Assembly (NCBI RefSeq): GCF_009931435.1
Contig: NZ_CP043414.1
DNA length: 64,000 nucleotides
DNA from: Escherichia coli
GTDB lineage: Bacteria; Pseudomonadota; Gammaproteobacteria; Enterobacterales; Enterobacteriaceae
Reading direction: 5' to 3' (one strand)
Shown here: positions 30,501-33,333 of the stretch, piece after piece
How the letters are laid out: every line of letters starts with the position of its first letter
How positions within the stretch are numbered: the stretch's first letter is position 1
Made by a program: the position numbers and the translations under genes
Notes under the pieces: generated by a model
Database searches by the model: none
Told to the model about the DNA's origin: nothing
The model's input: the letters and a program-made list of their open reading frames with translations, nothing else

Positions 30501-33333
30501 TATAGTTGGCCTGGCCCAGTGCGGTTACCGCCGATGCCGGAACGGTGACGCTCCAGTTGCCGGAGGCGTCGGTCGTGGTGGTGTAATTTTGCCCGTTCAG
30601 CGTCACGGTGATGGCGGTATTAACAGGCTGATCGCTGGTGCCGGTAATCTGGAGATCGGCTCCTTTTTCGCTGGCGTTGATCACATCATCGCCCGCAATG
30701 CTGTTAATGCCGATAAGGGGCGCAGCGGTATTGACCGTGACAGTCAGTGACTGGCTGCCCGTGTTTCCTGCGCGGTCGGTTACCGAGACGCTGACAGGAT
30801 AACTGCCGTCCACCAGTCCGCTGACAACGGAAGCCGGAACGCCCAGGCTCCAGTTGCCGGAAGCATCCACCACCGTGGTGTAATCCACATCATTCAGCGT
30901 AACGGTGACGATATCGCCCGCCTGAGCGCCAGTAACCGTGCCGCTGATGATTTGCGCCTGGGTATGTTCCGGCGTGTTAATGACGTTATCGGTCGCCACC
31001 GGATTAATGGTTACCACCGGCGGCGTGGCATCGACCAGCGCCACGCGTGAAACGCTGGTCGGGTTACCCGCGACATCGTTCACGCTCGCGGTCACCGTGG
31101 CGTTGCCGTCAGCCAGCGCGCCCACGTTGGCGGCGGGAACGGTCACGCTCCAGGTGCCATCTGACTGCACGACGCCCTGATAGGTCTGCCCATTAAGCGT
31201 GACGGTCACCGTCTGCCCCGGCTGAGCGTCGGTGGTGCCCGTGATTTGCAGATCCTGACCACTTTCGGCGGCGTTGATGATGTTATCGGCCGTCAGCGAG
31301 TCGATGCTTAAGGCCGGGGCCTGGCTGTCGACAGTAATGGTGCGGGAGGTGTTGCCGGTATTGCCGCTGAGATCCGTCACTGAAGCGGTAATCGCCACCG
31401 CGCCGTCAGGCAGATTTCCCATCGCGGCGGCAGGTACCGTCAGACTCCAGGAGCCATCGGCCTGTACGGTAGTGGTAAAACTCTGTCCAGCCAGGGTTAC
31501 TGTGACGGTTTGTCCTGTCTCGGCCTGTTGAGTGCTACCGGTAAGGGTCAGTGGCGCACCTTTTTCCGCGCCACTGATAATGTCATCGCCGGAGACGGTG
31601 TTAATGGTGATCAACGGAGAAACACCGACCAGCGTGATTGCTCGAGACGCCGCGCCGGTATTTCCTGCAGCATCTGTCACGGTGACGAAAATCGTATTGG
31701 CTCCGCGATCCAGCGTGCGGGTTACCGCCGGGTCCAGTGCCACATTCCAGCTGCCATCTGCCAGCACGATGCCCGTCAGGACATGAGTGCCCAATTTCAC
31801 CGTTACCGTATCGCCTGGAGAAGCACCGCTGACTTGTCCGGAGATGATCTGCGCGACGGCCTGCTCGGCATTATTAAGAATATCGTCGCCCGCCACGGTG
31901 TTAACGCTGACCACGGGTGCTGAGGTGTCTACCGTGAAATTCGCGCTGTTGCTGGTGGTGTTCCCTGCCCGATCGCTGACACTGGCATTGACAGCGTAGT
32001 TCCCCTCCGCCAGTGCCTGGACCTCCGTGGCAGGCAGCGTCACTTGCCAGGTTCCGTCGCTACCGACGGTTGCTGAATGGCTTTTCCCGTTGACGGTCAG
32101 GGTTACGGTTTGCCCCGCTTCTGCATTCGAAGTGCCGCTCAGTACCAGCGCGGCGTTATGTTCCGCAGCACTGACGATGTTGTCCTGAGCGATAGTGTTG
32201 ATGGCAAGCGTTGGCGGTTGGGTATCGACCGTTAGCAGCTGCGCGCCAGTGACCGTATTGCCTGTGGCGTCTTTCCCACTGACCAGCACCGCCTGATTCC
32301 CTTCGCCTAACGCCTGTGCATCGGCGGTCGGCACCTGCACGCTCCAGGCACCGTTAGCGCCTACGCTGGTGGTGTAGGTTTTGCCGTTTAGCGTAACGGT
32401 GAGTTCTGTTCCCTGCGCCAGATGGCTACTGGTGCCAGAAAGCGTAAACCCGGCGGCCTGTTCGCTGGCGTTAATAATGTTATCGCCTGCGGTGGTGGCA
32501 ACCTGCACGCTGGCCTGACTATTGTCGATGGTTAACGTTATCGAACCGGCGTCAGTGATGGTACTGCCGACAATTTGCACCACTGACCAGGTATGTTCAC
32601 CTGCACTTTGCGTGGGTAACGAGACACTCCACTGACCGTTGTTGTCTACCTGAGTACTGGCAATAGTATTGCCGTTACTGTCTTTAATCTGAATAGTCGC
32701 CCCCGCCTGCCCGCTGCCGCTAAAGGTTGGCGTGGTATCATCGGTGATGTCATTGGTGGCGAGAATGCCGCGCTGATCGCCCTGATTATCGGTAACTAAA
32801 AATGATGGTGTGGCGTTGCCAGGCTCAGCGGGTGGCGTAGGGTTATTAATCACTTCCGTTTTCGAGTCGCCATCACCACCGCTTGCCAGCAGTGCACCAA
32901 GCGCACCACCACCTACCGCCGCCCCCGCCAGCCAACCCCACGGGAAGGCGCTGGTCTGAGCAACAGTATCAAGAAATGGCGCAATGCTTTCAATCGCAGT
33001 GGTCTGGGCAGTCAGTTCTACGGGGGCTAATCCACCCACAGCAGTATCGGCGAAGGTGACATGGGTTAGCTGTTGCCCATCGGCAAACACCAGTTCCGAT
33101 TGTTCAGCTGTATTCGCCGCTTGCAGGAAATAACCGTTGCAGCGGATCACCGTGCCGTCCTGCATATAGATCAGCAGGTCATTTCCTTCACGGACGTAAC
33201 GCGCAACGGCAGAGGCCTGAGCATGAACCTGCACCACGGAGGGCTCATAAATGACAACCGTAACGTCGCCAGGATTAATCAGCGTTTGTTTGACGGATGT
33301 TTTTCGCGAAATAACATCAATAATCAGGCTCAT
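12562..33333 (-). CDS. Giant (6,923 aa) type I-secreted repetitive adhesin, BapA/SiiE/LapA-like
   Basis: Single uninterrupted 20,772-nt ORF. Dozens of ~100-aa Ig-like repeats (consensus ...INTVAGDDIINAAE...TVTVTLNG..YTATV.ADGSWSV.VPAADL.AL..G...) organised in ~600-aa super-repeats; C-terminal FG-GAP/VCBS-like Asp-rich motifs (DFDGDGDMD, DYDWDGAVD, DLNNDGRID) and RTX-like GGxGxD nonapeptides (GSSGDNQLEGRGGNDTLNIGNGGHDTL). Flanked by dedicated T1SS genes. Confidence 0.9.
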   Translation of the reverse strand: MSLIIDVISRKTSVKQTLINPGDVTVVIYEPSVVQVHAQASAVARYVREGNDLLIYMQDGTVIRCNGYFLQAANTAEQSELVFADGQQLTHVTFADTAVGGLAPVELTAQTTAIESIAPFLDTVAQTSAFPWGWLAGAAVGGGALGALLASGGDGDSKTEVINNPTPPAEPGNATPSFLVTDNQGDQRGILATNDITDDTTPTFSGSGQAGATIQIKDSNGNTIASTQVDNNGQWSVSLPTQSAGEHTWSVVQIVGSTITDAGSITLTIDNSQASVQVATTAGDNIINASEQAAGFTLSGTSSHLAQGTELTVTLNGKTYTTSVGANGAWSVQVPTADAQALGEGNQAVLVSGKDATGNTVTGAQLLTVDTQPPTLAINTIAQDNIVSAAEHNAALVLSGTSNAEAGQTVTLTVNGKSHSATVGSDGTWQVTLPATEVQALAEGNYAVNASVSDRAGNTTSNSANFTVDTSAPVVSVNTVAGDDILNNAEQAVAQIISGQVSGASPGDTVTVKLGTHVLTGIVLADGSWNVALDPAVTRTLDRGANTIFVTVTDAAGNTGAASRAITLVGVSPLITINTVSGDDIISGAEKGAPLTLTGSTQQAETGQTVTVTLAGQSFTTTVQADGSWSLTVPAAAMGNLPDGAVAITASVTDLSGNTGNTSRTITVDSQAPALSIDSLTADNIINAAESGQDLQITGTTDAQPGQTVTVTLNGQTYQGVVQSDGTWSVTVPAANVGALADGNATVTASVNDVAGNPTSVSRVALVDATPPVVTINPVATDNVINTPEHTQAQIISGTVTGAQAGDIVTVTLNDVDYTTVVDASGNWSLGVPASVVSGLVDGSYPVSVSVTDRAGNTGSQSLTVTVNTAAPLIGINSIAGDDVINASEKGADLQITGTSDQPVNTAITVTLNGQNYTTTTDASGNWSVTVPASAVTALGQANYTVTAAVTSDIGNSATASHNVLVDSALPGVTINPVAADDVINAAEAGVVQTISGQVTGAAVGDTVTVTLGGNTYTATVQANLSWSVSVPAADIQALGNGDLTVSASVTNQNGNTGSGTRDITIDANLPGLRVDTVAGDDVVNIIEHGQALVVTGSSSGLAEGTPLTVTINNVEYTTAVQADGSWSVGVTAAQVSAWPAGTVSIAVSGESSAGNPISITHPVTVDLTPAAITINTIATDDVINAAEKGADLTLSGTTTNVEPGQTVTVNFGGKNYTASVASDGSWTATVPAADLAALPEGSASAQASVSNINGNSASAVHNYSVDSSAPTIIINTVASDNIVNASEADTGVTVSGSTTAEAGQIVTVTLNSPTVQTYQATVQADGSWSINIPAADLAALTDGSHTLTATVNDKAGNPASTTHNLAVDLTVPVLTINTIAGDDIINAAEHGQALVISGSSTGGEAGDVVSVTLNSKTYTTTLDASGNWSVGVPAADVSALGSGPQTVTATVTDVAGNSDNETHTVTVNLTVPTIGINTIATDDIINATEKGADLQISGTSNQPTGTTITVTLNGQNYSATTDAAGNWSTTVPASAVGALGEASYTVTANVTDSAGNSNSASHNVQVNTALPGVTINPVATDDIINAAESGVAQTISGQVTGAAAGDTVTVTLGGKTYTATVQGNFSWSVDVPAADIQAIGNGDLTVNASVTNGVGNTGSGSRDIVIDANLPGLRVDTVAGDDVVNSIEHGQALVITGSSSGLAAGAALTVVINNVTYGATVLADGTWSVGVPAADVGNWPAGTVDITVSGTNTAGTTSTITHPVTVDLAAVAISINTVSGDDVINAAEKGADLTLSGSTSGVEAGQTVTVTFGGKTYTATVAGDGSWTTTVPAADLSALRDGDATVRASVSNINGNTASATHAYSVDATAPTLAINTIATDDILNAAEAGNPLTISGTSTAEAGQTVTVTLNGVAYIGTVQAGGSWSVSVPTTDLSNLTASPYTVSASVSDKAGNPATATHGLAVDLTVPVLTINTVSGDDIINAAEHGQALVISGSSTGGEAGDVITITLNSKTYTTTLDASGNWSVGVPAADVTALGSGPQTITAAITDTAGNSDDASRTVTVNLTAPTIGINTIASDDVINATEKGADLQITGTSNQPAGTTITVTLNGQNYTATTDSSGNWSATVPASAASALGEANYTVTASVTDTAGNSNSASHNVLVNSALPGVTINAVATDDIINAAEAGSAQTISGQVTGAAAGDTVTVTLGGNTYTATVQANLSWSVSVPAADIQALGNGDLTVNVSVTNDVGNTGSGSRDITIDANLPGLRVDTVAGDDVINSLEHNQALVITGSSTGLTAGTALTVVINNVTYAATVLADGTWNLGVPAADVSNWPAGTVDITVSGTNSAGTTSTITHPVTVDLAAVAITINTLSGDDVINAVEKGETLVVSGSTSGVEAGQTVTVTFGGKNYTTTVEANGSWTVNVPPADLAALPDGAGNVQASVSNINGNSAQADRAYSVDATAPLVTINTIASDDILNVSEAGAGITISGTTTAQAGQTLTVTLNNNTYQTTVQADGTWSVNVPATDLSGLTASSYTVTATVSDKAGNPASADHALAVDVTAPDLTINTVAGDDIINAIEHGQALVVSGTSTGAAAGDVVTVNLNGKNYTTTLDASGNWSVGIPAADVTALATGSQTITASLSDRAGNSDSTTHDVTVDLSGPTLTINTVSGDDIINNAEKTQDLIISGVSSGLAAGTTVTVMLNGLAYSATTDGSGNWSVTVPASAVGALGEAVYSISASATDSAGNSGSTTHTVNVESLLPGVIINTVAGDDIINAAEIAVNQTLSGQVTGTAAAGDSVTVTLGGNQYIATVQPDLSWSVSVPAADLQALGNGELTISASVTNSANNTGTATHDIVIDANLPGLRVDTVAGDDVINSIEHTQALVVTGSSSRLAAGAALTVVINGVTYGATVLADGTWSVGVPAADVTNWPAGTVNIAVSGTNTAGTTTSITHPVTVDLAAVAITINTLSTDDVINAAEKGTDLQLSGTTSDVEAGQTITVIFGGKSYTTTVAADNTWGLTIPAADLATLPDGAANIQASVSNVAGNNAQATHVYSVDATAPSVTINTIASDDILNAAEAGSALTISGTSTAEAGQTVTVTLNGVNYSGNVQADGSWSVSVPTGDLADLTASPYTVSAAVSDKAGNPTSATHNLTVDLAAPVVTINTVAGDDIINATEHAQAQIISGSATGATTGNTVSVTIGTTTYTTVLDANGNWSIGVPASVISALAQGDVTITATVTDSAGNSGTASHTVSVALGAPILAINTIAVDDIINATEKGADLSISGTSNQPAGTQVTVTLNGQNYTTTADASGNWSVTVPASAVGTLGEATYTVTAAATDVDGNSGSASHNVQVNTALPGVTINVVATDDIINAAEAGATQTISGQVTRAAAGDTVTVTLGGATYTATVQADLSWSVDVPASALQALGNGELTISASVTNSVGNTGNGTREITIDANLPGLRVDTVAGDDVVNIIEHGQALVITGSSSGLAVGSNVTLTINGQTYVAAVLADGTWSVGVPAVDVSAWPAGAVTITASGSTTAGNPVSVTHPVTVDLSAVAVSINAITADDVINAAEKGAALTLSGSTSGVEAGQTVTVTFGGKTYIASVAANGSWSTTVPAADMAALRDGDASAQASVSNVNGNSATTTHAYSVDATAPTVTINTIAGDDILNAAEAGAALTITGSSTAEAGQTVTVTLNGANYTGTVQTDGSWSISVPPADLSALTASNYTVSAAVSDKAGNPTSVNHNLTVDTSVPVVTINTVAGDDVINATEHAQAQIISGSSTGAATGSTVTVTIGSNTFTTVLDASGNWSVGVPASVVSTLANGTVTINASVTDVGGNSGSASHQVTVNTGLPTITFNAISSDNVLNADEKGQPLTISGGSTGLTTGAQVTVTLNGHNYNATTDAAGNWTLTVPVSDLAALGQANYTVSASATSAAGNTASSQANLLVDSGLPGVTINTVAGDDIINAAEAGADQTISGGVTRAAAGDTVTVTLGGNTYTTTVQGNLSWSISVPAADLQALGNGDLTITASVTNANGNTGSGTRDITIDANLPGLRVDTVAGDDIVNSIEHGQALVIAGGSSGLNAGAVLTVTINSVAYSATVQADGSWSVGIPAASVGAWPAGPLTVDVTGQSSAGNPVSVSHPFTVDLTAVAISINTVASDDVINAAEKGTNLTLSGSTSGIENGQTVTVTFGGKTYTASIAANGSWSVNVPAADLASLPDGAANVQASVSSASGNSASATHAYSVDASAPTLTINTIASDDILNATEAGSPLTISGTSTAETGQTVTVTLNGATYSGTVQADGSWSVSVPTSALGALTASNYTVSATVNDKAGNPGSASHNLAIDTTAPVLTINTVAGDDILNDAEHAQALVISGTSTGGEAGDVVSVVLNGKTYTTTLDASGNWSVGVPAADVAALSSGAQTITASVSDRAGNSDDASRTVTVNLTAPAISINTIAGDDVINATEKGSNLALSGTSDQPAGTAITVTLNGQNYSATTDASGNWSVTVPASAVSALGEATYSVTASVTNAQGNSSTASHNVQVNTALPGVTINPVAMDDIINASEAGSAQTISGQVTGAAAGSTVTVELGGKTYTATIQADLSWNVSVPAADWQALGNGELTVNASVTNAVGNTGSGMRDITIDASLPGLRVDTVAGDDVVNIIEHAQAQVITGSSSGFTAGTALTVVINNQTYAATVLANGTWSVGVPAADVSNWPAGTLNISVSGANSAGTQTSIIHPVSVDLTTVAISINAITPDDVINAAEKGAALTLSGSTSGVEAGQTVTITFGGKTYTTTVAANGSWSTTVPTADLAALRDGDASAQVRVTNVNGNSATATHEYSVDSAAPTVTINTIASDNIINASEAAAGVTVSGTAETGQTLTVTLNGTNYQTTVQADGSWSLTLPASDLTALANNGYTLTATVSDLAGNPGSASKGVTVDTTAPVISFNTVAGDDVINNVEHSQAQIISGTATGAVAGDRLVVTIAGQQYVTSTDASGNWSVGVPANVVSGLADGTVTISATITDSAGNSSTQTHNVQVNTAVVSLSVSTISGDNIINAAEAGSALTLSGTGTNFATGTVVTVLLNGKGYSATIQNNGSWSVNVSAADVAALADGTSYTVSASAQDSAGNSATASRSVAVDLTAPVISINTVSTDDRLNAAEQQQPLTLNGSTSAEVGQTVTVTFGGKTYTATVAANGTWALNVPVADLAALGQGAQTITASVNDRAGNPGQTTHALTVDTVAPTVTIATVAGDDIINNAEQLAGQTISGTTTAEVGQTVTVTFNGQSWTATVGSGGSWSVFIPAQQFAGLSDGSYIISATVSDQAGNPGSASRGVTLNGDVPTVTINTLAGDDVVNAAEHGASLVISGTTTAPVGQTLTLTLNGKTYTTTVQTGGSWSYTLGSADVTALADGNAYVINASVSNAIGNIGSSNHTITVDLSAPAMGINIDSLQADTGLSASDFITSVSPVVVNGSLTAALASNETAQISIDGGVTWSTLTVTGTTWRYNDSRTLTDGNYLYQVRVIDAAGNVGATDSQNVVIDTTAPDPAVKTIAISAITTDTGLITNDFVTSDTTLAVSGTLGAALSAGEFAQISIDGGTTWQNLAVNGLTWTYLDGRTLTDGNYNYQVRVIDTAGNIGATASQIVTVDTTAPLASKTIVIAGISDDTGLSSSDFVTRDTTLTVRGTLGAALAADERAQISLDGGVTWTTLTVIGTSWSYADGRTLTDGTWNYTVRVVDLAGNVGQTATQNVVVDTISPEAAKSITITGISDDTGASSSDFITSDTTLTVRGVLGAALGANEFAQISTDNGATWVNVTVAADGLNWTYVDGRTLTNGTTTWQVRVVDLAGNVGATGSQSAQIDTVNPAQVLTIASISTDTGSSATDFITSDTTLTLTGSLGAGLASGEVAQISLDGGATWTTLTTNGTQWTYTDSRTLTDGSYIYQVRVLDLAGNTGPVVSKTVVVDTINPTATPTIVSYTDDVGQRQGTFSNSQATDDTTPLLNGVLSAPLASGEVVYLYRNGLLLGAVTMVGALNWTYSDSGLVSGAYTYSARVVDLAGNITSSSDFVLTVDTSIPTTLAQITNQTTRDTTPIISGVLTAALASGQYVEVVINGKTYTSQPGGAVVVDPAHNTWYVQLPDTDALAASATAYNVTAQVKSSAGNGNTANVSTGTVTVNAAIDYTPTWTTASKSTAWGLTYGLDTHGMWTVLANQQIMQSTDPLTWSKTALTLVQSGNNYATSSIADYNRNGTGDLFITRDDYGTGYINGFTNNGDGTFSSAIQVNVGTLTWYGSIVAFDKEGDGYLDFWIGDAGGPDSNTFLWNNAGTLTGNSTTANNGGSATVGGAVTGYLSLNEGSGVDLNNDGRIDLVQHTFNLNNNFTLSSLISQGNGTFVWGQNTVNTFLSSPGSGGNSTSVSMTWADFDGDGDMDLFLPASQGRANYGSLLFNTNGVLGSPVAVGATATTYASQFSLAVDWDHDGLMDIARIAQTGQSYLYTNVSNASNWTQSALGGSQSGTTSGVAAMDYDWDGAVDVLVTKQSGSVFLIRNTNTVSYGTSLHLRITDPNGINVYYGNTVKLYNSAGVLVATQIINPQSGMGVNDTSALVNFYGLNAGETYNAVLIKSTGTTASNIDQTVNTSWGGLQATDATHAYDLSAEAGTASNNGKFVGTGYNDTFFATAGTDTYDGSGGWVYSSGTGTWLANGGMDVVDFRLSTVGVTANLSVTTAQATGFNTSTFTNIEGISGSNFNDTLTGSSGDNQLEGRGGNDTLNIGNGGHDTLLYKLLSASDATGGNGSDVVNGFTVGTWEGTADTDRIDIRELLQGSGYTGNGKASYVNGVATLDAQAGNIGDFVKVTQSGSDTIVQIDRDGTGGGFATTNVVTLTGVHTDLATLLANHQLMVV
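17700..30300. repeat. Tandem ~1.8 kb coding super-repeats (about 7 copies) inside the adhesin gene
   Basis: The protein motif IDANLPGLRVDTVAGDD recurs about every 600 aa. Antisense artefact ORFs with near-identical N-termini (MPPKVTVTVCP / MTVTVCPASTP) recur at roughly 18908, 20702, 22517, 26105, 27887 and 29702, a ~1.8 kb period. Array boundaries are approximate. Confidence 0.75.

What the first reader, a model, noticed from the sequence alone, without database searches (positions are those of the whole stretch)
32700..33333. Adhesin N-terminus: globular module followed by a Gly/Ala-rich hydrophobic segment, with no LapG/LapD genes nearby
The first ~90 residues (MSLIIDVISRKTSVKQTLINPGDVTVVIYEPSVVQVHAQASAVARYVREGNDLLIYMQDGTVIRCNGYF...) resemble the N-terminal retention/plug domains of BapA/SiiE/LapA-type adhesins. 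This is followed at about residues 125-150 by SAFPWGWLAGAAVGGGALGALLASGGDGD, a glycine-zipper-like hydrophobic stretch. In LapA-type systems surface retention is controlled by LapG proteolysis under LapD/c-di-GMP control, but no LapG- or LapD-like ORF is in this window. Retention and release of this adhesin may therefore work differently, or the regulators may be encoded elsewhere.
Basis: inference. Interest (0 to 1): 0.35.

Follow-up and report, generated by a model that had tools for sequence, protein, structure and literature searches.

The report
BapA-type adhesin N-terminus, ordinary
The stretch is the start of the already-annotated giant E. coli surface adhesin SiiEA, and both its folded N-terminal domain and the greasy glycine/alanine-rich segment after it are standard features of the BapA adhesin family, which does not use the LapG/LapD release system.

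Summary
ORF 12562-33333 encodes a 6,923-aa type I-secreted adhesin. RefSeq annotates this gene as siiEA in 958 of 5,426 complete E. coli genomes.

- **Folded domain:** residues 1-122 form a confidently predicted all-beta domain matching Pfam BapA_N.
- **Hydrophobic stretch:** residues 127-153 (TSAFPWGWLAGAAVGGGALGALLASGG) are the longest polar-free run in the protein. An equivalent stretch occurs in about 85 of 91 homologues, so it is a family feature and not peculiar to this locus.
- **Not LapA-type:** there is no hit to the LapA retention-module model, profile-profile probability is 7%, no LapG cleavage motif is present, and no significant PDB fold match was found. AF2 predicts an all-beta N-terminus, which does not match what I recall of Salmonella SiiE (N-terminal coiled coil); no SiiE sequence was compared.
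- **No LapG/LapD in the window:** Pfam scans and tblastn both find nothing.
- **Transporter:** the cognate ABC transporter falls in the LapB/LssB subfamily.

Best reading: a LapG-independent plug domain followed by an uncharged linker that stays in the secretion channel. This is inferred, not shown. In this strain the dedicated TolC-like gene carries a premature stop. The finding is ordinary and of low interest.

The parts
32968..33333 (-). N-terminal globular all-beta domain of SiiEA (residues 1-122), BapA prefix-like domain
   Evidence: Pfam PF22783 residues 5-132, 72.3 bits (cutoff 27). NCBIfam NF033677 71.9 bits and NF047714 SiiEA 445 bits. AF2 with a 61-sequence alignment gives pLDDT 94-98 and 11 strands. 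Its core (about residues 37-97) also matches PF06594 HCBP_related units inside RTX proteins.
32875..32955 (-). Polar-free Gly/Ala-rich hydrophobic segment (residues 127-153, TSAFPWGWLAGAAVGGGALGALLASGG)
   Evidence: Longest run without D/E/K/R/N/Q/H in the protein. Kyte-Doolittle 19-residue maximum 1.40. AF2 predicts coil with pLDDT below 50. An equivalent stretch is present in 85 of 91 homologues.
32806..32874 (-). Acidic and Pro-rich linker (residues 154-176, DGDSKTEVINNPTPPAEPGNATP...) leading to the first Ig-like extender
   Evidence: Translation. AF2 pLDDT 52-66 with no secondary structure until strand 178-181.
12883..32805 (-). Extender and ligand-binding body of the adhesin: tandem bacterial Ig-like domains, then FG-GAP repeats (best stretch 13954-14193) and an RTX nonapeptide block (12934-13038)
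   Evidence: Pfam Big_6 and Big_13 in residues 187-800. FG-GAP_3 and HemolysinCabind in the C-terminal 812 aa.
12562..12882 (-). C-terminal type I secretion target domain and stop codon
   Evidence: TIGR03661 T1SS_VCA0849, 34.1 bits (cutoff 17.6).
33442..34797 (-). Dedicated TolC-family outer-membrane channel gene, interrupted by an in-frame stop (Q335*, codon 33793-33795)
   Evidence: Pfam OEP and TIGR01844 on both fragments. Alignment with the intact 451-aa gene of E. coli AST215 shows no indel, only a nonsense codon.
10396..12558 (-). Type I secretion ABC permease/ATPase, LssB/LapB subfamily
   Evidence: TIGR03375 836 bits (cutoff 693), and below the cutoff of the HlyB model. A genuine LapB scores 975 bits on the same model. 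33% identity to LapB.
9224..10399 (-). HlyD-family periplasmic adaptor of the type I secretion system
   Evidence: TIGR01843 328 bits (cutoff 209); Pfam HlyD_3.

Best explanation
This is the N-terminus of SiiEA, a BapA-family giant RTX adhesin. It is exported C-terminus first by the type I secretion system encoded around it (TolC-like channel, ABC transporter, HlyD adaptor).

Proposed mechanism:
- The last part to reach the machinery is a compact 122-residue beta domain. It folds on its own and is too bulky for the channel, so it acts as a stopper.
- The following ~55 residues stay inside the secretion conduit and tether the adhesin to the cell. They comprise the uncharged Gly/Ala-rich stretch, a short Gly/Asp patch and a Pro-rich spacer.
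- No LapG cleavage site is present, and the family is not associated with LapG/LapD. Retention is therefore not controlled by the LapD/LapG c-di-GMP switch.

Shown here: the domain family, the predicted fold, family-wide conservation of the segment, absence of the motif, absence of LapG/LapD in the window, and the transporter subfamily.

Inferred: that the domain plugs the channel, and where the segment sits.
For: - **Family and position:** BapA_N at the extreme N-terminus of a protein with Ig-like repeats, RTX repeats and a T1SS C-terminal signal, flanked by OEP, ABC and HlyD genes. Other family members show the same layout.
- **Fold:** AF2 gives a very confident globular domain for residues 1-122, followed by a low-confidence coil for 128-153. 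This fits a folded stopper plus flexible linker and does not suggest a membrane helix.
- **Length:** the region between the domain end (~122) and the first Ig strand (~178) is ~55 residues. That is up to ~190 A extended, enough to span a ~140 A TolC channel (channel length from general knowledge).
- **Conservation:** the segment occurs in 85 of 91 homologues and is typically followed by poly-Gly and then acidic or polar residues.
- **Not an inner-membrane anchor:** both flanks are acidic, with almost no Lys/Arg, so there is no positive-inside signature. The Hessa-scale sum is positive (median +2.75; +3.19 here).
- **Transporter:** the ABC transporter belongs to the same curated subfamily (TIGR03375) as LapB, which sits next to LapG/LapD/LapA in a Pseudomonas control locus.
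- **Precedents:** LapA is retained by an N-terminal module with Gly-rich stretches flanking the part in the TolC-like pore. The PA1874 module, which has a degenerate motif and is not cut by LapG, still retains a LapA chimera (preprint 10.1101/198937). A minimal RTX adhesin is described as a retention domain plus a linker able to span the channel (10.1101/2025.09.30.679566). Salmonella BapA is detected on the cell surface by flow cytometry (PMC9927257).
Against: - No experiment on any BapA_N module was found in the searchable literature, so the plug role rests on analogy.
- BapA_N shows no detectable homology or fold similarity to the LapA/MpIBP retention domain.
- The segment is more hydrophobic than the LapA-type linker: family median KD19 1.67 against about 0.5-1.1. 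A passive linker role does not explain this.
- In this strain the dedicated TolC-like gene has a premature stop, so the system may not work as encoded.
- In the closest complete genome, siiEA itself is frameshifted.
Confidence: 0.55

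Rival explanations
1. The Gly/Ala-rich stretch is a true membrane-embedded helix. It would act as a stop-transfer element lodged in the ABC transporter or inner membrane and leave the beta domain in the cytoplasm. The adhesin would then be tethered from the inner membrane through the whole secretion tunnel.
For: 55 of 91 family members reach the classical Kyte-Doolittle threshold of 1.6, and some reach 2.0-2.5. 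Trp residues often mark the N-terminal edge (44 of 91). GxxxG spacing is common.
Against: - This protein's own stretch is weak (KD19 1.40; Hessa sum +3.19).
- Only 3 of 91 members have a Hessa sum at or below 0.
- Both flanks are acidic and lack Lys/Arg.
- AF2 predicts coil with pLDDT below 50.
- GxxxG patterns are expected by composition alone in a 56% Gly/Ala sequence.
Confidence: 0.12
2. The adhesin is fully released. The N-terminal domain and hydrophobic stretch act outside the cell, for example by self-association, matrix binding or loose re-attachment to the cell surface.
For: An early genomic paper on Acinetobacter Bap assumed a surface-exposed N-terminal domain (PMC4647330). From my own recollection, not checked here, the original Salmonella study described BapA as loosely surface-associated.
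Against: - The module always sits at the end that leaves the cell last, and its transporter is of the LapB subfamily used for retained adhesins.
- A polar-free stretch exposed to water outside the cell has no obvious role.
- No data were found for such a function.
Confidence: 0.15
3. The module is a LapG substrate after all, with LapG and LapD encoded elsewhere in the genome.
For: - GAAV at 137-140 is one residue off the motif.
- A genuine LapA-type adhesin locus (L007) also lacks LapG/LapD nearby, so absence from a neighbourhood is weak evidence.
- 18 of 91 family members carry a motif-like tetrapeptide in the Gly/Ala-rich region.
Against: - No consensus motif is present.
- None of the sequence signatures of the LapA-type module is present: NF033682 gives no hit, and there is no LQQAIAAG-DPT stretch (invariant in the 12 Pseudomonas control sequences) upstream of a TAAG.
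- PA1874, with a similar near-miss motif, is not cleaved.
- No LapG/LapD lie within 10 kb of six other BapA_N loci, including two that have TAAG.
- lapG-lapD DNA finds nothing in 5,426 E. coli genomes, though this test is weak.
- To my knowledge E. coli has no LapG/LapD.
Confidence: 0.03

Closest known systems
Salmonella enterica BapA with its BapBCD type I secretion system (Pfam PF22783 carries the BapA name)
   Same: Same N-terminal domain family, followed by a Trp-edged Gly/Ala-rich polar-free stretch and poly-Gly (for example the BapA-like representatives P0103 and P0108). Ig-like repeats, a T1SS C-terminal signal and an adjacent TolC-like/ABC/adaptor operon are also shared. The bacterium is not known to have LapG/LapD.
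   Different: SiiEA is about twice as long, carries FG-GAP repeats near the C-terminus, and sits in a different chromosomal island (between ybaT and cueR). Nothing is known experimentally about SiiEA.
Pseudomonas fluorescens LapA with LapG/LapD (NCBIfam NF033682 retention module)
   Same: Giant RTX adhesin. It has an N-terminal folded module followed by a Gly-rich flexible region of comparable length, and the ABC transporter belongs to the same TIGR03375 subfamily.
   Different: - No sequence, profile or detectable fold relationship between the N-terminal domains.
- No TAAG site.
- The linker is longer and more hydrophobic.
- No LapG/LapD in the locus.
Pseudomonas aeruginosa PA1874 (BapA of P. 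aeruginosa)
   Same: An adhesin retained without LapG cleavage. It has a degenerate Ala-rich motif (AAAIG 137-141) at the same distance from the N-terminus as GAAV 137-140 here.
   Different: Smith et al. treat the PA1874 module as LapA-like, and no sequence with its AAAIG motif was among the BapA_N-family hits. I recall it as the LapA sequence type, not BapA_N. Its sequence was not retrieved, so this was not tested directly.
Marinomonas primoryensis ice-binding adhesin MpIBP, Region I (RIN plug and RIM pore-spanning part; PDB 5ix9)
   Same: Proposed architecture of a periplasmic plug domain followed by a narrow segment lying in the outer-membrane pore.
Salmonella SiiE (SPI-4)
   Same: Giant Ig-repeat adhesin secreted by a T1SS; source of the gene name siiEA.
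   Different: As I recall from the literature, SiiE has an N-terminal coiled-coil region and needs the SiiAB proton channel. Here AF2 predicts an all-beta N-terminus, and the operon has only the three T1SS genes. No SiiE sequence was compared. NCBI's own name is 'BapA-related'.
Acinetobacter baumannii Bap, Blp1 and Blp2
   Same: They share the N-terminal motif (weak NF040520 Blp2 hit; PMC4647330). Acinetobacter-like representatives show the same polar-free stretch.
   Different: Different repeat types and C-terminal regions. Blp2 lacks the RTX-like C-terminus according to that paper.

Membership tests
BapA prefix-like domain family (Pfam PF22783 / NCBIfam NF033677) | Score above the curated cutoff of the family models | tested here: met
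   PF22783 72.3 bits against 27; NF033677 71.9 bits against 35.
BapA prefix-like domain family (Pfam PF22783 / NCBIfam NF033677) | Located at the extreme N-terminus of a large Ig-repeat protein that carries a type I secretion C-terminal signal and lies beside T1SS genes | tested here: met
   Residues 5-132 of 6,923. Big_6/Big_13 repeats, RTX repeats and TIGR03661 are present, with OEP, ABC and HlyD genes adjacent.
E. coli SiiEA (NCBIfam NF047714, exception model) | Score above the model cutoff and the same chromosomal locus as RefSeq siiEA | tested here: met
   445.1 bits against a cutoff of 425 with only the first 200 aa. 97.8% DNA identity to loci annotated siiEA between ybaT/glsA and the T1SS genes/cueR.
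LapA-type retention module / LapG substrates | Sequence match to the retention-module model NF033682 | tested here: not met
   No hit even at E<=10, while a Pseudomonas control N-terminus scores 144 bits.
LapA-type retention module / LapG substrates | Remote homology of the N-terminal domain (profile-profile) | tested here: not met
   hhalign of 61 BapA_N sequences against 12 LapA-type sequences: probability 7%, 17 aligned columns.
LapA-type retention module / LapG substrates | Di-alanine LapG cleavage motif [T/A/P]AA[G/V] after the folded domain | tested here: not met
   Only QAAN (71-74) and GAAV (137-140) occur in the first 220 residues. Nearly all intact control N-termini have TAAG, and one has AAAG, at about residue 107.
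LapA-type retention module / LapG substrates | LapG (PF06035) and LapD (PF16448-HAMP-GGDEF-EAL) encoded in the genome | not testable with these tools
   Absent from the window (Pfam; tblastn). The rest of the genome is not available. lapG-lapD DNA finds nothing in 5,426 E. coli genomes, but that test is insensitive.
LapA-type retention module / LapG substrates | Fold like the MpIBP RIN domain (PDB 5ix9), used as the template for LapA | tested here: inconclusive
LapA-type retention module / LapG substrates | Cognate ABC transporter of the LapB/LssB subgroup | tested here: met
   TIGR03375: window transporter 836 bits, LapB control 975 bits, cutoff 693.
Salmonella SiiE-type retention | N-terminal coiled-coil region and accessory SiiA/SiiB (MotAB-like) genes in the operon | tested here: not met
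   AF2 predicts strands only in residues 1-122. The operon holds only TolC-like, adhesin, ABC and adaptor genes, flanked by ybaT and cueR. The SiiE features themselves are recalled from the literature; no SiiE sequence was compared.
Inner-membrane transmembrane anchor | Sufficient hydrophobicity, Lys/Arg-rich cytoplasmic flank, predicted helix | tested here: not met
   KD19 1.40; Hessa sum +3.19; both flanks acidic, with 0-1 Lys/Arg; AF2 coil with pLDDT below 50. These are simple scales, not a dedicated predictor.

The most novel reading that the evidence does not exclude
The polar-free Gly/Ala-rich stretch is conserved in nearly all BapA_N adhesins and is absent from LapA-type modules. It may therefore be the real anchoring element and not a passive linker. 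For example, it could act as a stop-transfer segment lodged in the ABC transporter or inner membrane, with release by something other than LapG, such as an intramembrane protease. BapA-type adhesins would then form a second, mechanistically distinct class of retained type I secretion substrates.
Probability: 0.12. Interest if true: 0.55.

Novelty: already known. Interest (0 to 1): 0.2.

Why it matters
It matters little for this locus. The gene is already named in RefSeq, its N-terminal domain has Pfam and NCBIfam models, and a lack of LapG/LapD near the gene was seen at all six other BapA_N loci examined.

The one point of wider use is descriptive. BapA-type and LapA-type N-terminal modules are unrelated in sequence, yet they share an architecture and a transporter subfamily. 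The BapA type also carries a strikingly conserved uncharged Gly/Ala-rich stretch whose role has not been tested. Working out how BapA-type adhesins of E. coli, Salmonella and Acinetobacter are held on, and let go from, the cell surface would help biofilm and colonisation research.

Tried and rejected
- **Single-sequence AF2 of residues 1-200:** useless (pLDDT 42). Repeated with an alignment.
- **Word-indexed protein search with the N-terminus:** returned only short E. coli fragments. The exhaustive representative search was needed.
- **PDB sequence search with the family profile:** only low-complexity noise.
- **Was PA1874 a BapA_N protein?** No family hit carries its AAAIG motif. PA1874 itself was not retrieved, so its type is my recollection. 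I therefore use it only as a precedent for LapG-independent retention, not as a family member.
- **Last protein search, spent on LapG to look for Escherichia homologues:** only the best 120 of 5,040 hits are listed, and nearly all are Pseudomonas, so it says nothing about E. coli.
- **blastn of lapG-lapD DNA against E. coli genomes:** no match, but insensitive.
- **Literature searches for 'SiiEA' and 'BapA prefix-like':** only annotation-level mentions.
- **The Chem Rev T1SS review:** held only in part, with no LapG text in the part held.
- **AlphaFold-database fold libraries:** not available.
- **Glycine zipper as evidence of helix packing:** rejected. GxxxG spacing is expected from composition alone in a 56% Gly/Ala stretch, and AF2 predicts no helix.

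Full report
**Observation.** The + strand of 32700-33333 is full of stops. An AGGA sequence lies 9 nt upstream of the ATG. The quoted N-terminal sequence is exact. The hydrophobic stretch is at residues 128-156. Residues 127-153 (TSAFPWGWLAGAAVGGGALGALLASGG) contain no D/E/K/R/N/Q/H. This is the longest such run in the whole protein, with 56% Gly+Ala and GxxxG spacing.

**What the gene is.**
- The first 200 residues match Pfam PF22783 (BapA prefix-like domain; 72 bits, cutoff 27), NCBIfam NF033677, and above cutoff the NCBIfam model 'BapA-related adhesin SiiEA' (445 bits against 425).
- Bacterial Ig-like domains begin at about residue 180.
- The C-terminal end carries FG-GAP repeats, RTX nonapeptides and a type I secretion target domain.
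- The gene sits in an operon with a TolC-family channel gene upstream, and an ABC permease/ATPase and a HlyD adaptor downstream.
- The flanks are E. coli core genes: glsA and ybaT on one side, cueR, ybbJ and qmcA on the other.
- The 5' region is 90-98% identical to chromosomes of 958 of 5,426 complete E. coli genomes, where RefSeq names the gene siiEA.
[quoted passage not shown] I found no functional study.

**The hydrophobic stretch is a family feature.** An exhaustive search of 1.84 billion representatives found 141 relatives. Among 91 N-terminal homologues:
- 85 have a polar-free stretch with Kyte-Doolittle 19-residue hydrophobicity of at least 1.2, and 55 reach 1.6.
- The stretch starts at a median residue of 125, with median length 28 and 52% Gly+Ala.
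- It is commonly edged by Trp and followed by poly-Gly and then Asp/Asn/His-rich sequence.
- Salmonella-BapA-like and Acinetobacter-Blp-like sequences are included.
- The flanks are acidic on both sides and almost free of Lys/Arg. The Hessa-scale sum is positive in nearly all members (median +2.75; 3 of 91 at or below 0).

Together with the AF2 coil prediction, this argues against a conventional inner-membrane helix.

**Comparison with LapA-type retention modules.** I retrieved genuine Pseudomonas 'retention module-containing' N-termini.
- These carry a TAAG or AAAG site at about residue 107 and a poly-Gly run. Their linkers are much less hydrophobic (KD19 about 0.5-1.1).
- A control sequence scores 144 bits on NCBIfam NF033682 (retention_LapA). 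The window protein gives no hit even at E<=10.
- hhalign between the two family alignments gives 7% probability.
- The window protein has only two Ala-Ala dipeptides in its first 220 residues, QAAN and GAAV. Neither fits [T/A/P]AA[G/V].

The module is therefore not a member of the LapA-type family, and it is not an obvious LapG substrate. The predicted all-beta N-terminus and the three-gene operon also do not match what I recall of Salmonella SiiE (an N-terminal coiled coil and SiiAB accessory genes), but no SiiE sequence was compared.

**LapG and LapD.** No ORF in the window carries PF06035, PF16448, GGDEF or EAL domains (annotation of the matching E. coli regions). As a positive control, a Pseudomonas lapA locus shows LapG and LapD next to the T1SS genes. 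tblastn of those proteins against the window gives nothing below E = 1.3. Six other BapA_N loci also lack them within 10 kb. However, a MapA-like LapA-type locus lacks them too, so neighbourhood absence is weak evidence. Whether this genome has LapG/LapD elsewhere cannot be tested from the window. A DNA search of 5,426 E. coli genomes found nothing, but that test is insensitive. To my knowledge E. coli has neither gene.

**How it most likely works.** The ABC transporter belongs to the curated LssB subfamily (TIGR03375, 836 bits, cutoff 693). The genuine LapB control falls in the same subfamily (975 bits), and neither reaches the HlyB model cutoff. Smith et al. showed three relevant things (10.1101/198937):
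- LapA is held at the surface by an N-terminal module, with Gly-rich stretches flanking the part inside the TolC-like pore.
- LapB-like transporters form a distinct group.
- The PA1874 module, whose degenerate AAAIG motif is not cut by LapG, still retains a LapA chimera.

Recent work describes a minimal RTX adhesin as a retention domain plus a linker able to span the channel, with several retention-domain variants (10.1101/2025.09.30.679566). Salmonella BapA is detected on the cell surface (PMC9927257). By analogy, the 122-residue domain is the stopper. The ~55 residues that follow are long enough to cross a TolC channel and stay in the conduit. Retention would be independent of LapG. This is inference; I put it at 0.55.

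**Rivals.**
- An inner-membrane or transporter-embedded helix (0.12).
- Full release with an extracellular role for the N-terminus (0.15).
- A LapG substrate with regulators encoded elsewhere (0.03).

**State of the locus in this strain.** The TolC-like gene has an in-frame nonsense codon (Q335*, 33793-33795). There is no indel relative to the intact 451-aa gene of strain AST215. siiEA is intact here but frameshifted in AST215. The system may therefore be decaying, or it may depend on housekeeping TolC.

**Verdict.** It is an annotated E. coli adhesin whose N-terminal domain and Gly/Ala-rich stretch are standard for the BapA family, and that family was not found next to LapG/LapD at any locus examined. 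Its suspicion that retention works without LapG is reasonable. The only mildly new point is descriptive: the polar-free stretch is near-universal in the family, and I did not find it discussed in the literature I could search.

Noticed in passing
window 33442-34797 (-), stop codon at 33793-33795: The operon's dedicated TolC-family channel gene carries an in-frame nonsense codon (Q335*). This splits it into ORFs of 334 aa and 103 aa. The E. coli AST215 copy is intact (451 aa) and has no indel difference.
   Followed up: yes
L001 80-20834 (E. coli AST215) versus window 12562-33333: siiEA is annotated as frameshifted in the closest complete genome but is an intact 6,923-aa ORF in the window. Different components of the system are broken in different strains.
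   Followed up: partly
window 42035-43395: A 1.36-kb insertion lies between ybaK and ushA relative to strain AST215. It carries a DUF6896 gene (42058-42858) and a second hypothetical ORF. It is present in 774 of 5,426 complete E. coli genomes, at 98.7% identity at best.
   Followed up: partly
window 6407-8628: The segment between ybbJ and cueR holds accessory genes: a small YadA-anchor protein (7136-8152, 338 aa) and ORFs without a Pfam match (6407-6769, 8206-8628). AST215 also has a YadA-like gene and hypothetical genes here.
   Followed up: no
window about 33043-33222 (residues 37-97 of SiiEA); proteins P0065, P0095, P0122, P0131: The core of the BapA_N domain matches repeated internal units of RTX proteins that Pfam calls HCBP_related (PF06594). 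This suggests the N-terminal module derives from an RTX-associated beta unit.
   Followed up: partly
L003 32733-36041: In the enterobacterial locus of the 6,001-aa homologue P0014, two EAL-domain genes (one GerE-EAL) lie just downstream of the T1SS genes. This hints at c-di-GMP-linked control of another kind, or it may be coincidence.
   Followed up: no
L004 10001-21553; L009 1-14905: One BapA_N adhesin (P0044) sits next to TraI/TraD conjugation genes with no T1SS genes nearby. In another locus, two BapA_N adhesins lie in tandem ahead of a single T1SS gene set.
   Followed up: no
window 32500-34900 and 42035-43395: The best identity to any of the 5,426 complete E. coli genomes is only 97.8-98.7% in these regions. 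The source strain is not closely represented in that collection.
   Followed up: no
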